NCBI GenBank assembly: GCA_045634745.1
Contig: JAZRAX010000028.1
Location: 1,674 to 65,673 of the forward strand
Length of the DNA stretch: 64,000 bases
Origin: Acetatifactor sp.
GTDB taxonomy: Bacteria > Bacillota > Clostridia > Lachnospirales > Lachnospiraceae
Direction of reading: 5' to 3'
Shown: positions 46,406 to 49,331 of the stretch, in pieces
Layout: each line of letters starts with the position of its first letter
Position numbering within the stretch: the first letter of the stretch is position 1
The notes under the pieces: generated by a model
The model's input: only the letters and a program-made list of their open reading frames with translations
Databases searched by the model: none
What the model was told of the DNA's origin: nothing
Program-made: the position numbers and the translations under genes

Positions 46406-48046
46406 CTACGCCACGCTGCGTAATGCTTCTTCCACCTTATCATATCTGGGTGCGTCCAGCACCTTTAACAGACTTTCATAAGGGTCCTTTATTTCTTTTT
46501 TCGCCGCTACTTTTGCCGCATTCTGGGAAAAGCCGGAAAGCAGACACAAACCACTTTCATTATCTACCATAGGAATGGTGTCGGTACGTCCGCACAAATT
46601 CCAGAAAATCAGGCGAGGCATGGTGTAGCCTGCCGCCTTGTACTCCTCTGCAATTTGCTCAAACAACGCGTCATCCACTGAACCGCCCACCCATGTACCG
46701 GTTCTCCAGTCATACGCTCGGCTGGTGGCACAGTCAAACTCCATATCCGAAAGCACCAGCACCTGCTTAGGCAACTGTTCCTGTGGTACCTGATTACTTA
46801 CCGCCATGGCAAGGAGCATGTCAAACACCGCCTTGATGTTAGTATTTGCCACTTCATTGTGCGCCAGCATGATTTCCAGCTTATCTTTAAGAGAGCTTCC
46901 CTTCTCCAAATCGATAAACTTTGGCGTCATACTAAAGGTAATAGCCTTATTATGGAACACGCCCTGTAACTGCTCGGCAAAGTAAATGGCCAAAGAATTA
47001 CACACCTCCAAAGCCCTTACGCTACTGCTACCACTTACACAGCTGAACATACTGCCGGAACCGTCTGCCACTACGATACAGCCGTCCAGTCCCCAGTCAT
47101 TCTGAAAACCCTGCCTCGTAATAATTTCCCACATAAGCTCTGCCAAAACGTCCTCTTTCAAGGTTCTGGAATAACTTGCAAAATAGTCTTTCATATATCT
47201 GTGCACGATTTCGTAAGGCATAAGACCGGTAGCATTCAGCTTACCCTCCCCAAGCAAAACTGCTCTCAGATACTCTGCACGTCTTTCCTTATCGTGCTTG
47301 TAGAAGGCATTGTCGTACAGAAGGTTTGCCTTTGCCGGTACCGCCTCATAGTCCACCGTCTCCCACGCACCTGCTGAAAGCTTGGTTTCCAGCACATTAC
47401 CATAAGCTCGGAGGCTCGCCAAAAGCTTACGGTACTCCTTGGAAGAATAGCCCATGCCCCTTGCCAAAATTGCCGCATACTCACGACTTTCCTTGGAAGA
47501 AGTATTCACACTGGGTAACCACTTAGCCAAAAGTGAAATACTCCTGCCCTCATTCATGCATCCCAAATCGTGCATCAGCTGTCCCTTGATAAATTTGCAA
47601 ACCTCTTTGCGAAGAGGGGTATCCAAATACACCAGCAAATCATCATATCTGCCATATTCCGGCACCAGCTTCATAACCGCCAGGGCAATCTTTGGCTGAG
47701 AAACTGCCAAATACTTCAAGCAAATACGAAAGCTTCTTCTTTCGCCCAGACCTTCCCAAATGTCACGCAAGAAAAACAGCCACTTCACCGCATGGACTCT
47801 ATCCTGCATAAATGCCTTGATAAATTCACCAGTAATATATTCCTCCGTTCTGCATCTTAAGGAAGAAACCTTAAAATTCAAATCCAACAACGGGTTGGTA
47901 GTGGTTTTGTAACCTACCGCACCATTCTCAGTCACTGACCGATTATTATAATTTTTCAAAAAGTGTACTGCATGAGCACGAGTAATGTCCACACTGTCAA
48001 TTTCTTTTTGAATATCCTTATTATCAAATCTCACTGCTCTCTGCAT
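46406..48046 (-). CDS. DUF2828-family vWA / Ro60-TROVE-like protein
   Basis: TENGAVGYKTT..PLLDL, LRDIWEGLGER, AKWLPS, MIDAS-like VVADGSGSM, LSDMEFD and LIFWNL. Start at ATG 48046 behind AGGAAAGGTGG. Confidence 0.8.
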   Translation of the reverse strand: MQRAVRFDNKDIQKEIDSVDITRAHAVHFLKNYNNRSVTENGAVGYKTTTNPLLDLNFKVSSLRCRTEEYITGEFIKAFMQDRVHAVKWLFFLRDIWEGLGERRSFRICLKYLAVSQPKIALAVMKLVPEYGRYDDLLVYLDTPLRKEVCKFIKGQLMHDLGCMNEGRSISLLAKWLPSVNTSSKESREYAAILARGMGYSSKEYRKLLASLRAYGNVLETKLSAGAWETVDYEAVPAKANLLYDNAFYKHDKERRAEYLRAVLLGEGKLNATGLMPYEIVHRYMKDYFASYSRTLKEDVLAELMWEIITRQGFQNDWGLDGCIVVADGSGSMFSCVSGSSSVRALEVCNSLAIYFAEQLQGVFHNKAITFSMTPKFIDLEKGSSLKDKLEIMLAHNEVANTNIKAVFDMLLAMAVSNQVPQEQLPKQVLVLSDMEFDCATSRAYDWRTGTWVGGSVDDALFEQIAEEYKAAGYTMPRLIFWNLCGRTDTIPMVDNESGLCLLSGFSQNAAKVAAKKEIKDPYESLLKVLDAPRYDKVEEALRSVA

Positions 48047-48139
48047 AAGTACCACCTTTCCTGCTTTTCCACAAAGCACTCTTCACGCTCTGCAAGCCTT
48101 TGACCATAAAGCCACTGCTCTGCCAAGCTTCTTTAAGCG

Positions 48140-48290
48140 AAAAACGCGCCCAAGGTGCACCTTGGGCAACGACTCTCAACCAGACGCAATTTAAATGCTT
48201 AAGCCTTGCACAGGCTTCGCGCTTTGATCATCCATAGTTTTCTTTAAATTTTAAGGGATTGCTGTAAGCGTCTGTCTGTTTTTGTTTACA
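48140..48290 (-). ncRNA. Candidate structured leader / small RNA upstream of DUF2828
   Basis: CAGACGC(TTACA)GCAAT pairs with ATTGCGTCTG and encloses an AAGCCT-GTGCA-AGGCTT hairpin. It ends in the perfect palindrome GCCCAAGGTGCACCTTGGGC followed by GCGTTTTT. Confidence 0.5.
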
Positions 48291-48295
48291 CTGAC

Positions 48296-48324
48296 ACTAT
48301 AACACGCCTAAAACACTTTGTCAT
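48296..48324 (-). promoter_or_regulatory. Sigma-A promoter for the leader/DUF2828 unit
   Basis: ATGACA-N17-TATAGT with a TG extension. Confidence 0.65.
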
Positions 48325-48362
48325 TTAACCCGTGGTTTAAAATATCTGTTTTCATCCCATCA

Positions 48363-48404: not shown

Positions 48405-49331
48405 TTATCTATTTGCCAATGCACTTGCAATATCTTCTCTCATATCCAGCACTGCCGCACGGGATGCATCTGCATAGCCTGCATCACCATAAGAAGCATA
48501 CTTCTCCTGCTGATATGCTGCAATGATTCCTCTAGAAGAGTTTACGATAGCACCCAAACCGTCTTCATCAAAGAAGTGTACCAAATCTGCTCCTTTACCG
48601 CCCTGTGCACCATAACCCGGTACCAGAATAAAGGACTTGGGCATTACCTTACGCAAAATCTTACCCTGCTCCGGATAAGTAGCGCCAACTACTGCACCGA
48701 TATAGCTGTAGGAATCGCCCATGTGGTCAGCGCCCCACTCAGCAACCTTCTCACCAACGTGCTCATAAAGAGGCTTACCGTCAATCAGACGATCCTGGAA
48801 ATCGCCACTACTTGGATTAGAAGTCTTTACCAAAATAAACAGACCCTTCTTTTCCTCTTTACAAACCTTTACAAACGGAAGCACACTATCTGCTCCCATA
48901 TATGGATTAATGGTTAAGAAATCTTCATCAAAGCCATAGTAAGAATTGCTTCCTACCTGCACCTTACCCAAATGACCTACTGCATACGCCTCTGAAGTAG
49001 AACCGATGTCACCACGCTTTGCATCTCCGATGACTACCAAGCCCTTACTCTTACAGTAATCTACTGTCTTCTTAAAAGCTACCAAACCGGGAATACCAAA
49101 CTGCTCATACATAGCAATCTGAGGCTTCACTGCCGGTACTAAATCATAAATCGCATCTACAATACCCTTGTTGTACTGCCAAATAGCTTCTGCCGCACCC
49201 TCTAAGGTCTCGCCAAACTCCGCAAATGCAGCCTGCTTAATATGCGCCGGAATAAACTTCATCATGGGGTCCAAACCAACCACGATAGGCGCATTTGTCT
49301 TTTTGATTTTTTCCACTAATTTGTTAATCAT
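48405..49331 (-). CDS. pyrF: Orotidine-5'-phosphate decarboxylase
   Basis: VVGLDP, KPQIA, DAKRGDIGST, KTSNP, GAVVGATYP, LVPGYGAQG and NSSRGI. Confidence 0.96.
   Translation of the reverse strand: MINKLVEKIKKTNAPIVVGLDPMMKFIPAHIKQAAFAEFGETLEGAAEAIWQYNKGIVDAIYDLVPAVKPQIAMYEQFGIPGLVAFKKTVDYCKSKGLVVIGDAKRGDIGSTSEAYAVGHLGKVQVGSNSYYGFDEDFLTINPYMGADSVLPFVKVCKEEKKGLFILVKTSNPSSGDFQDRLIDGKPLYEHVGEKVAEWGADHMGDSYSYIGAVVGATYPEQGKILRKVMPKSFILVPGYGAQGGKGADLVHFFDEDGLGAIVNSSRGIIAAYQQEKYASYGDAGYADASRAAVLDMREDIASALANR

What the first reader, a model, noticed from the sequence alone, without database searches (positions are those of the whole stretch)
46406..48324. Ro60-like DUF2828 gene with its own structured upstream RNA (Y-RNA-like candidate)
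Seen: promoter at 48296-48324; a ~245-nt leader; a 10-bp closing helix with a 7-nt bulge containing UUACA; two hairpins that both display GUGCA loops (one self-complementary GUGCAC, which could allow kissing or dimerisation); and a terminator-like end near 48140, ahead of the CDS. Established: Ro60/TROVE proteins have a vWA domain and bind Y RNAs at a bulged helix encoded nearby; DUF2828 proteins are uncharacterised vWA proteins. Inference: an undescribed RNP or autoregulatory pair in which the protein binds its own ~150-nt RNA.
Basis: partly seen in the sequence, partly recalled or inferred. Interest (0 to 1): 0.7.

Follow-up and report, generated by a model that had tools for sequence, protein, structure and literature searches.

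The report
Ro60-like protein with its own small RNA
A gut bacterium carries a gene for a protein shaped like the human Ro60 autoantigen. Just in front of it lies a small structured RNA whose "handle" (a short helix followed by UUACAGCAA) follows this protein family through bacteria and hundreds of phages, which points to an undescribed cousin of the Ro60/Y-RNA particle.

Summary
The sequence features are real. There is a sigma-70 promoter (48324-48296, minus strand). A 7-bp helix (48274-48268 with 48187-48181) encloses UUACAGCAA (48267-48259) and a 5-bp hairpin. An intrinsic terminator follows (48177-48137), then the gene (ATG 48046; DUF2828 + DUF7788/vWA).

1. The AlphaFold model (pLDDT 85) has only Ro60 structures as its four best PDB matches, all full-length.
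2. The helix + ACAGCAA module is conserved upstream of homologues. ACAGCAA occurs 508 times on the gene strand and 29 times on the other strand in 97 loci. It lies within 600-700 nt upstream in 72/75 phage and 26/28 Lachnospiraceae loci. All helix pairs show compensatory changes. A covariance model searched over 301 whole genomes hit only genomes that carry the gene, and 12 of 13 hits lie next to it.

Not supported: the extra 3 bp and the "7-nt bulge", and the GUGCA loops as kissing sites. Those loops vary among close relatives or are simply the terminator apex.

This window holds a minimal chromosomal version: one RNA and one protein. Phages carry arrays of the module, often grafted onto tRNA-like scaffolds. 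In 7/28 Lachnospiraceae genomes RtcB is adjacent to the gene.

Protein-RNA binding and RNA expression remain untested. I found no description of the RNA class in Rfam 15 or the searched literature.

The parts
48327..48337 (-). Palindromic box AACCACGGGTT (AAC-N5-GTT) abutting the -35; possible regulator site
   Evidence: The same box, AACYACNNGTT, sits at a fixed 63-73 nt upstream of the motif in 12 chromosomal relatives. Its function was not tested.
48296..48324 (-). Sigma-70-type promoter: -35 ATGACA (48324-48319), extended -10 TGTTATAGT (48304-48296). Start inferred near 48288.
   Evidence: Consensus scan gives 10/12 matches with a TG extension. It is conserved in relatives of 62-91% protein identity although the flanking genes differ.
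48268..48274 (-). 5' strand of the closing helix (CAGACGC)
   Evidence: Pairs with 48187-48181. In the window's clade: C-G to U-A at pair 1, G-C to A-U at pair 6, G.U at pair 4. Family-wide, 7 core pairs all show compensatory changes.
48259..48267 (-). Conserved single-stranded motif UUACAGCAA (invariant core ACAGCAA 48265-48259); proposed protein-docking site
   Evidence: ACAGCAA occurs 508 times on the gene strand and 29 on the other in 97 homologous loci. Density is 2.10/kb upstream against 0.03/kb on the opposite strand. It is invariant in alignment A3.
48225..48237 (-). Semi-conserved interior element CUAUGGAUGAUCA
   Evidence: Partly conserved in L001, L100, L102 and L105. Role unknown.
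48201..48217 (-). Inner hairpin AAGCC-UGUGCAA-GGCUU (5 bp, 7-nt loop)
   Evidence: The stem is kept in 7 close relatives while the loop varies. It has the dimensions of an anticodon stem-loop but carries G instead of U at loop position 2.
48181..48187 (-). 3' strand of the closing helix (GCGUCUG)
   Evidence: See the 5' strand. With filters off, the covariance model aligns 48276-48178 full-length at 25.6 bits, E 1e-5 for a 401-nt search.
48137..48177 (-). Intrinsic terminator: lower stem GAGAGUCGUU, hairpin GCCCAAGG-UGCA-CCUUGGGC (48167-48148), U tract
   Evidence: Terminator scan. Conserved with compensatory changes in the clade. Absent in more distant relatives, where the RNA abuts the ribosome-binding site.
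48052..48059 (-). Shine-Dalgarno AAAGGUGG, 5 nt upstream of ATG 48046
   Evidence: Sequence. The same AAAGGTGGTACTT-ATG junction is found in L001 and L002.
46406..48046 (-). CDS of 546 aa: helical DUF2828 domain + DUF7788 (vWA with a complete MIDAS motif: D328, S330, S332, T402, D434); Ro60-like fold
   Evidence: Pfam PF11443 (2.8e-27) and PF25043 (3e-43). PHROG 850 'RNA-binding protein', 1e-113. Invariant MIDAS residues. AF2 pLDDT 85, pTM 0.84. Foldseek top 4 are Ro60 structures.

Best explanation
The leader is the gene for a Y-RNA-like small RNA. This RNA is the partner of the Ro60-like DUF2828/vWA protein encoded just downstream.

Shown:
- One conserved promoter precedes an RNA whose ends pair in a 7-bp helix.
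- The helix is followed directly by single-stranded UUACAGCAA.
- After a variable interior with one hairpin comes an intrinsic terminator, then the ribosome-binding site and the gene.
- The helix + ACAGCAA module travels with this protein family, on the gene's strand, through Lachnospiraceae chromosomes and phages of mycobacteria, enterobacteria and Firmicutes.
- The protein model resembles solved Ro60 structures over its full length.

Inferred:
- The protein docks on the helix + ACAGCAA 'handle', as Ro60 docks on the conserved stem of Y RNAs.
- Most transcripts stop at the terminator and give a ~150-nt RNA. Read-through yields the mRNA, so the RNA is made in excess of the protein and the protein may feed back on its own leader.
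- The variable interior is the functional or adaptor part. In phage relatives it is an anticodon-stem-loop look-alike or a whole tRNA-like body.
- The particle most likely works in surveillance, repair or protection of tRNA-like RNAs together with host enzymes such as RtcB or PNPase.
For: Protein:
- DUF2828 + DUF7788 domains and PHROG 850 'RNA-binding protein'.
- 704 phage records carry a homologue, annotated 'Ro-like RNA binding protein' or 'vWFA protein', mostly inside tRNA gene clusters.
- Invariant MIDAS residues.
- Model pLDDT 85. The four best Foldseek PDB hits are all Ro60: 9kop E 1e-6 with TM 0.49/0.56, 9l5y, 1yvr, 9nen.

RNA:
- ACAGCAA occurs 508 against 29 times by strand.
- 72/75 viral and 26/28 bacterial loci have it within 600-700 nt upstream.
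- An exact 7-nt Watson-Crick partner lies downstream in 143/368 instances, against 1.5% at random positions.
- Covariation score is 0.711 (seeds) and 0.537 (covariance-model hits in other genomes), against 0.23 and 0.21 shuffled, with 0/500 shuffles reaching it. All pairs show double changes.
- 120 of 120 covariance-model hits in 44 viral loci are on the gene strand.
- In 301 whole genomes the model hits only 10 genomes, all among the 30 with the gene, and 12/13 hits are adjacent to it.
- In the window's clade the promoter, helix (with compensatory changes), motif, hairpin and terminator are all kept.
- The window RNA aligns full-length to the model.

Link to Ro/Y biology:
- RtcB is immediately adjacent on the same strand in 7/28 loci.
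- Permuted tRNA-like members give sub-threshold YrlA hits of 40-46 bits.
Against: - No binding or expression data.
- Sequence-level homology to TROVE/Ro60 is marginal. There is no PF05731 hit. hhalign against three TROVE proteins gives probability 25%, E 7.6e-4, over the end of the helical region and the first part of the vWA domain, including the MIDAS DxSxS motif. phmmer and hmmsearch against the PDB are not significant.
- Foldseek TM is only about 0.5 with rmsd about 9 A. A closed ring was not verified.
- The RNA motif differs from the Ro60-binding GNCGAA(N)G/CGAA motif (PMC4201824, PMC12135203).
- In this window the single copy sits in the 5' leader before a terminator, which by itself also fits a purely cis-regulatory element.
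- The window RNA has no tRNA-like domain.
- RtcB in this genome is on another contig.
Confidence: 0.7

Rival explanations
1. The element is only a cis-acting leader. The protein, or another factor, binds the helix + ACAGCAA site in its own mRNA to control termination at 48177-48137 or translation. No free functional small RNA or stable particle exists.
For: In the window and its close clade there is one copy, in the 5' leader, followed by a terminator and then the gene. No second promoter was found between the terminator and the ATG. In L107, L113 and L114 the RNA abuts the ribosome-binding site.
Against: Phage and other bacterial loci carry 2-10 tandem copies, and some lie downstream of the gene (UPIE, heid). 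Many copies are grafted onto tRNA-like or YrlA-like scaffolds. One covariance-model hit lies on a contig away from the gene (G126). A simple operator needs neither arrays nor tRNA mimicry. The two readings do not exclude each other.
Confidence: 0.15
2. The helix + ACAGCAA module is a processing or recognition signal for a host enzyme (an RNase, a tRNA-modifying enzyme or RtcB) rather than for the DUF2828 protein. The genes are merely co-inherited in a tRNA/RNA-repair island.
For: The module often lies in tRNA gene clusters and next to RtcB. Binding to DUF2828 is untested.
Against: In whole-genome searches the RNA occurs only where DUF2828 occurs: 10/30 genomes against 0/271. This includes this genome, where no tRNA cluster or RtcB is nearby. 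The pairing holds across hosts as different as Mycobacterium, E. coli and Clostridia, whose host enzymes differ.
Confidence: 0.08
3. It is a metabolite- or tRNA-sensing riboswitch-like attenuator, or a DNA-level element such as a recombination site or operator repeat.
For: The leader position with a terminator. A conserved palindromic box lies upstream. An integrase gene is inserted next to the locus in L098.
Against: The strand bias of 508:29 and compensatory base-pair changes argue for RNA, not DNA. Arrays, tRNA scaffolds and positions downstream of the gene do not fit a riboswitch. No Rfam family matches.
Confidence: 0.04

Closest known systems
Ro60 (Rsr, TROVE + vWA) with Y RNAs: Deinococcus Yrn1, Salmonella/Mycobacterium YrlA/YrlB (Rfam RF02553; PMC4201824), Thermus phage phiLo Ro60 with Yrl1/Yrl2 (PDB 9KOP, PMC12135203)
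   Same: - The protein has a helical-repeat N-terminal part plus a C-terminal vWA domain with MIDAS, and solved Ro60s are its best and only full-length structural matches.
- The partner RNA is encoded next to the gene on the same strand.
- The RNA ends pair in a stem that carries a conserved motif.
- Relatives have several RNAs per locus, some with a tRNA-like module.
- RtcB is linked in some genomes, as in the Salmonella rsr-yrlBA-rtcBA operon.
   Different: - No TROVE Pfam match, and only marginal profile similarity.
- The RNA motif is ACAGCAA directly 3' of the 5' strand, not GNCGAA(N)G/CGAA.
- All Rfam YrlA scores are below the gathering score (at most 46 against 69 bits), and there is none in the window.
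- The window RNA has no tRNA-like domain.
- Many relatives use an unpermuted tRNA body with the handle in place of the anticodon arm, a topology not described for YrlA.
Dictyostelium Class I RNAs (Rfam RF01414; PMC7919456)
   Same: The design is the same: a short terminal stem of 6-7 bp joins the 5' and 3' ends, a conserved unpaired motif lies directly 3' of the 5' strand, the interior is variable, and the length is about 60 nt. The Rfam consensus reads CUUACAGCAAU, identical to window 48268-48258. The conserved ends are also alike: AAG...CUGU in Dictyostelium (PMC7919456) against AAGRCNC...GNGYCUUG here.
   Different: - Eukaryotic, and reported as unique to dictyostelids.
- The known binder is the RRM protein Rnp1A/CIBP.
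- Rfam scores here are far below the gathering score: 15.4 bits in the window and 25 in L017, against 41.5. There was no hit at E<=1 in 8 rich loci.
- Whether Dictyostelium has a DUF2828 protein could not be tested with these tools.
- The shared 7-9-mer could be convergence.
Phage and bacterial tRNA-like small RNAs and tRNA gene clusters of large phages
   Same: Relatives of this locus lie inside phage tRNA clusters. They include elements that score as tRNA (RF00005, 32-53 bits) with a 57-59-nt insertion in place of the anticodon loop.
   Different: The window RNA has no D or T arm, and ARAGORN finds no tRNA next to the close relatives L001 and L002. The shared feature is the handle, not the tRNA body.

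Membership tests
Ro60 / TROVE protein family | Pfam TROVE domain (PF05731) or significant sequence-profile similarity to Ro60 | tested here: not met
   Pfam at E<=10 gives only DUF7788, DUF2828 and a weak VWA_2. hhalign of A2 against three TROVE proteins gives probability 25%, E 7.6e-4, over 177 columns spanning the end of the helical region and the first part of the vWA domain, including the MIDAS DxSxS motif. The PDB profile search gives E 0.6 to 9kop/9l5y, MIDAS stretch only.
Ro60 / TROVE protein family | Architecture: alpha-helical repeat domain followed by a vWA domain with a MIDAS motif | tested here: met
   AF2 secondary structure is all-helical at residues 52-312, then alpha/beta at 323-504. 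D328-x-S330-x-S332, T402 and D434 are invariant in 53 sequences.
Ro60 / TROVE protein family | Overall fold matches solved Ro60 structures | tested here: met
   Foldseek PDB ranks 1-4 are 9kop (E 1e-6, TM 0.49/0.56), 9l5y, 1yvr (E 2.4e-5, TM 0.50/0.52) and 9nen, with 543-562 aligned columns. The next hits are isolated vWA domains. TM of about 0.5 is moderate.
Ro60 / TROVE protein family | Closed ring with a central cavity; binds Y RNA on the outer surface | not testable with these tools
   Model coordinates could not be inspected, and there are no binding data.
Y RNA / YrlA (RF02553) | Encoded next to the Ro-type gene on the same strand | tested here: met
   Window: the RNA at 48276-48178 lies about 130 nt upstream of ATG 48046, same strand.
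Y RNA / YrlA (RF02553) | 5' and 3' ends form a stem that carries the conserved protein-binding motif GNCGAA(N)G / CGAA | tested here: not met
   The terminal stem is present and covaries. The conserved motif is ACAGCAA, not CGAA (motif definitions from PMC4201824 and PMC12135203).
Y RNA / YrlA (RF02553) | tRNA-like module (T arm, D arm, acceptor-like stem), and the Rfam gathering score | tested here: not met
   No RF02553 or RF00005 hit in the window leader at E<=10. Related loci reach only 24-46 bits against a gathering score of 69.
Dictyostelium Class I RNA (RF01414) | Short terminal stem plus the 11-nt motif (CCUUACAGCAA) directly 3' of the 5' strand | tested here: met
   A 7-bp stem, then UUACAGCAA. 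CUUACAGCAAU aligns identically to model positions 7-17.
Dictyostelium Class I RNA (RF01414) | Rfam gathering score (41.5 bits) and a length of 42-65 nt | tested here: not met
   15.4 bits, local alignment only. The window RNA spans 94 nt from helix strand to helix strand (48274-48181). Phage members have a median of 68 nt but give no RF01414 hit at E<=1.
Dictyostelium Class I RNA (RF01414) | Occurs in dictyostelids with a DUSE promoter; binds Rnp1A | not testable with these tools
   No eukaryotic genomes are held. Features are taken from PMC7919456.
Rho-independent terminator / attenuator leader | GC-rich hairpin followed by a U tract between the promoter and the CDS | tested here: met
   A 9-pair stem at 48168-48147, then CGUUUUUCGC. 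It is conserved with compensatory changes in 7 relatives. No alternative anti-terminator pairing was identified.

The most novel reading that the evidence does not exclude
The helix + UUACAGCAA handle is the docking site of a second, very widespread branch of Ro60-type particles (DUF2828 proteins). It is also the same module as in the Class I RNAs of Dictyostelium. DUF2828 proteins, which also occur in eukaryotes, would then be the long-sought core partner of Class I RNAs. The variable inserts (anticodon-stem-loop copies, tRNA bodies) would be interchangeable baits or decoys, used in conflicts over tRNA cleavage and repair.
Probability: 0.25. Interest if true: 0.9.

Novelty: new variant of a known kind. 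Interest (0 to 1): 0.78.

Why it matters
Ro60/Y RNA particles are a classic but still poorly understood RNA-surveillance system and a major human autoantigen. Bacterial work so far covers only TROVE-type Ro60 with CGAA-motif Y RNAs.

Here a much more widespread, uncharacterised family has its own cognate RNA class. The family has 704 phage records and about 10% of Lachnospiraceae genera, and its fold is Ro60-like. The RNA class has a simple, testable handle.

That gives DUF2828/PHROG 850 a concrete biochemical hypothesis. It explains many odd 'tRNA-like' sequences in phage tRNA clusters. It ties the family to RtcB RNA repair. It may also connect to the unexplained Class I RNAs of social amoebae.

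This window offers the simplest known version for experiments: one promoter, one RNA, one terminator and one protein.

Tried and rejected
- Thermodynamics of the whole leader: z = -0.61, not informative.
- Rfam 15 on the region (E<=10) and on related loci: no family explains the RNA. There were only terminator look-alikes, sub-threshold YrlA and a 15-bit local match to RF01414.
- phmmer and profile search of PDB sequences: not significant. NCBIfam: none.
- Kissing or dimerising GUGCA(C) loops: rejected. The loops are not conserved, and the second is the apex of the terminator stem.
- 10-bp helix with a 7-nt bulge: rejected in favour of a 7-bp helix followed by an unpaired motif.
- The inner hairpin as a true anticodon-loop mimic in this window: undecided. 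It has a 5-bp stem and a 7-nt loop, but G sits at the U33 position in most clade members.
- A first MFE-like helix count that allowed G-U pairs was uninformative (control 32%). It was replaced by an exact 7-mer test.
- A first regular expression for the promoter box had the wrong spacer and was corrected.
- RNA-seq evidence: no RNA run was listed.
- Literature: 'DUF2828' appears in 5 papers, none on function. 'Ro-like' phage papers are genome notes plus an overexpression screen in which LeBron gp53 is moderately toxic. A catalogue of 10,006 viral structured RNAs reports highly expressed 64-86-nt RNAs in Lachnospiraceae and Blautia phages, but no sequences are held, so overlap could not be checked.
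- A second copy in this genome: the pattern search finds only the window copy plus one unrelated match, and there is one DUF2828 gene.
Full report
**What is in the window**

All coordinates below are on the minus strand.
- pyrF ends at 48405 with its own terminator (48389-48363).
- A sigma-70-type promoter follows: ATGACA (48324-48319), 17 nt, TG-n-TATAGT (48304-48296), 10 of 12 consensus positions.
- About 10 nt after the inferred start, CAGACGC (48274-48268) is followed directly by UUACAGCAA (48267-48259).
- 71 nt later, GCGUCUG (48187-48181) closes a 7-bp helix.
- Inside lies a 5-bp hairpin, AAGCC-UGUGCAA-GGCUU (48217-48201).
- After the helix comes a strong terminator: lower stem GAGAGUCGUU, hairpin 48167-48148, and a U tract to about 48140.
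- About 80 nt further are AAAGGUGG (48059-48052) and ATG 48046, which opens a 546-aa reading frame ending at 46406.
- The GTG at 48079 listed by the ORF finder is less likely. The AAAGGTGGTACTT-ATG junction and the N-terminus MQRA are shared by relatives.
- Folding the 149-nt predicted transcript recovers all three helices. The whole 261-nt leader is not more stable than shuffles (z = -0.61).

**The protein**

- Pfam assigns DUF2828 (PF11443) and DUF7788 (PF25043).
- PHROGs assigns family 850, 'RNA-binding protein' (E 1e-113).
- tblastn finds homologues in 704 phage records. These include cluster L mycobacteriophages ('Ro-like RNA binding protein'), Felix O1-like coliphages ('vWFA protein'), and large Listeria, Staphylococcus and Enterococcus phages.
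- In the phages I inspected, the gene sits in or beside tRNA gene clusters.
- A complete MIDAS motif (D328, S330, S332, T402, D434) is invariant in 53 diverse sequences.
- An AlphaFold2 model built on that alignment is confident: pLDDT 85, pTM 0.84.
- Its four best PDB matches by Foldseek are all Ro60 proteins aligned over their full length: phage phiLo 9kop (E 1e-6, TM 0.49/0.56), 9l5y, Xenopus 1yvr (E 2.4e-5) and human 9nen. After these come only isolated vWA domains.
- At sequence level the relation to TROVE/Ro60 is marginal. There is no PF05731 hit. hhalign gives probability 25% over the end of the helical region and the first part of the vWA domain, including the MIDAS motif. PDB sequence searches are not significant.
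- I therefore call it Ro60-like by fold and architecture, not a TROVE family member.

**The RNA is a family, and it follows the protein**

Before I consulted any earlier notes, upstream regions of 14 genome homologues already showed the same 'helix strand + NN + ACAGCAA'.

Strand and position:
- In 97 loci (620 kb), ACAGCAA occurs 508 times on the gene's strand and 29 times on the other. About 38 per strand would be expected by chance.
- In 75 viral loci the density is 2.10 per kb upstream of the gene, against 0.03 per kb on the opposite strand. 72 of the 75 have a copy within 600 nt upstream.
- 26 of 28 Lachnospiraceae chromosomal homologues have one within 700 nt.

Pairing:
- The 7 nt that end two bases before the motif have an exact Watson-Crick partner 10-150 nt downstream in 143 of 368 distinct instances (control 1.5%).
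- A hairpin partner lies just upstream in 29 more (control 0.36%).
- The helix sequences differ widely: AAGACAC, AAGGCGC, GGGGCGC, AAGUCGC and others.
- On a 38-sequence seed alignment, every pair shows changes on both sides. The covariation score is 0.711, against 0.231 for shuffles (0/500), and slid registers collapse to about 35% paired.
- Those seeds were chosen for pairing, so I built a covariance model (R1) and searched other loci. It gave 47 hits beside DUF2828 genes, and the alignment gives 87% paired, all 9 pairs with double changes, and a score of 0.537 against 0.205 (0/500).
- In 44 viral loci, all 120 hits at E<=0.01 are on the gene strand.

The most independent test:
- R1 was run over 301 whole Lachnospiraceae genomes at E<=0.001 per genome.
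- It hit 10 genomes, all among the 30 that carry the protein. 12 of the 13 hits lie directly beside the gene.
- None of the 271 genomes without the gene had a hit.

**The window's own clade**

- Relatives at 62-91% protein identity are L001, L002, L003, L098, L100, L102, L103, L105, L106, L107, L113 and L114.
- They keep the promoter, the 5' strand YAGRCRC, NN, ACAGCAR, and the 3' strand GYGYCUR.
- The helix shows compensatory C-G to U-A (pair 1) and G-C to A-U (pair 6) changes, and G.U at pair 4.
- Close relatives also keep the inner hairpin stem and the terminator. The terminator has its own compensatory change (GGUGCACC to GAUGCAUC in L098).
- More distant relatives have no separate terminator, and the RNA abuts the ribosome-binding site.
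- The window RNA has an unusually long interior, so R1 finds it only locally with default filters (19.5 bits). With filters off it aligns full-length (48276-48178, 25.6 bits, E 1e-5 for the 401-nt search).
- The genome has one DUF2828 gene and one such RNA.
- The pyrF - RNA - gene - amidase arrangement is syntenic in several relatives, with an integrase or a ketopantoate-reductase-like (ApbA family) gene inserted upstream in some. This is a chromosomal, minimal version and not a prophage array.

- The extra AAU/AUU pairs, and hence the '10-bp helix with a 7-nt bulge', are not conserved.
- The first 'GUGCA loop' varies even among the closest relatives.
- The second is the apex of the terminator stem.
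- There is no support for kissing or dimerisation.

**How it most likely works**

Shown: the transcription unit layout, the covarying helix with an invariant unpaired 7-mer, exclusive co-occurrence with the protein, and a Ro60-like fold.

Inferred:
- The protein docks on the handle, as Ro60 docks on the conserved stem of Y RNAs.
- The terminator makes the RNA more abundant than the mRNA, and no second promoter was found.
- The variable interior is the working part.

Supporting context:
- In phage relatives the interior is an anticodon-stem-loop look-alike in 69 of 147 members, against 6% of shuffles.
- Elsewhere the handle replaces the anticodon arm of an otherwise tRNA-like body. Such elements hit RF00005 with a 57-59-nt insert. 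In others the handle encloses a permuted T arm/acceptor/D arm unit that resembles YrlA.
- RtcB lies immediately next to the gene on the same strand in 7 of 28 Lachnospiraceae genomes. This echoes the Salmonella rsr-yrlBA-rtcBA operon (PMC4201824). In this genome RtcB is on another contig.
- A role in surveillance, repair or protection of tRNA-like RNAs is the best guess. It is the least secure step.

**Comparison with what is known**

- Bacterial and phage Y RNAs described so far belong to TROVE-annotated Ro60 and use a GNCGAA(N)G/CGAA motif (PMC4201824, PMC12135203). That work selected genomes by TROVE annotation and so did not cover DUF2828.
- Rfam 15 has no family for this RNA.
- The only sequence-level echo is RF01414, the Dictyostelium Class I RNAs. 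Its consensus, CUUACAGCAAU, is identical to window 48268-48258. Its design (6-bp terminal stem, motif directly 3' of the 5' strand, variable interior, about 60 nt, ends AAG...CUGU) matches (PMC7919456). Scores are far below threshold, and I could not test whether dictyostelids have DUF2828. This remains a lead.
- I found no paper on DUF2828 function or on this RNA.
- Earlier notes of this scan report the same family in other genomes. They are not independent evidence, but I re-derived their main claims here.

**Limits**

- There are no expression or binding data.
- The Foldseek TM score is moderate.
- The covariance-model E-values are rough by construction.

Noticed in passing
window 48327-48337 (-); L001, L003, L098, L102, L103, L105, L106, L107, L114, L119, L130: A palindromic box AACYACNNGTT (AAC-N5-GTT, often GAAC-N5-GTTC) abuts the -35 hexamer at a fixed 63-73 nt upstream of ACAGCAA in 12 chromosomal loci whose flanking genes differ. 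It looks like an operator for an unknown regulator. Its spacing differs from the Firmicute LexA box.
   Followed up: partly
L004 1521-1759; L005-L009 and L011 about 2600-2910; L116, L120, L025, L034: tRNA-like elements with acceptor stem, D arm and T arm pass the Rfam tRNA threshold (32-53 bits), but ARAGORN does not call them. They carry a 57-59-nt insert (hairpin + NN + ACAGCAA) in place of the anticodon loop, often as tandem pairs just upstream of the DUF2828 gene.
   Followed up: partly
class-1 RNAs in L018-L097 (e.g. L028 1107-1174, L025 2229-2293, L029 741-805): The interior of 69/147 short members holds a 4-5-bp hairpin with a 7-nt loop of anticodon-loop form (Y-U-NNN-R-N), against 6% of shuffled interiors. 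The 'anticodons' are mostly UUU, UGA, UGG, CGA, CAU and GCU.
   Followed up: partly
G162:C1, G171:C2, G093:C4, G147:C39, G123:C228, G074:C170, G050:C51: RtcB (PF01139) lies immediately next to the DUF2828 gene on the same strand in 7 of 28 Lachnospiraceae genomes. In the window's genome RtcB is unlinked (C29:63898-64974).
   Followed up: yes
L015 (Mycobacterium phage UPIE) 4430-4700: Three handle-bearing RNAs lie downstream of gp53. The middle one (variant motif GCAGCAA) encloses a T arm, an acceptor-like hairpin and a D arm in YrlA topology, and scores 39.8 bits on RF02553, below the gathering score.
   Followed up: partly
L098 1-1052; L100 and L102 103-1137: The upstream border of the locus is variable: pyrF in the window, a tyrosine-integrase gene in L098, and a ketopantoate-reductase-like (ApbA family) gene on the opposite strand in L100 and L102. 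The RNA, the gene and the downstream SH3-amidase gene stay together.
   Followed up: no
L004 2937-4487; G171:C2:22199-23695; G223:C71: Some homologues contain one in-frame stop (TAG in G171 and G223). They may be pseudogenes, or they may come from elements that read TAG as sense. Not examined.
   Followed up: no
L017 (Escherichia phage heid) 4722, 5277, 5364: In this Felix O1-like coliphage of E. coli K-12, three handle RNAs (GAAGACCAAnUACAGCAA...) sit between tRNA genes downstream of the 'vWFA protein' gene. This is a tractable laboratory system for testing the family.
   Followed up: no
PMC10690425 (no sequence held): A 2023 catalogue of viral structured RNAs reports unnamed 64-86-nt RNAs that are highly expressed in human gut small-RNA-seq, from phages of Lachnospiraceae, Blautia and Ruminococcus. 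They might overlap this family, but this could not be checked.
   Followed up: partly
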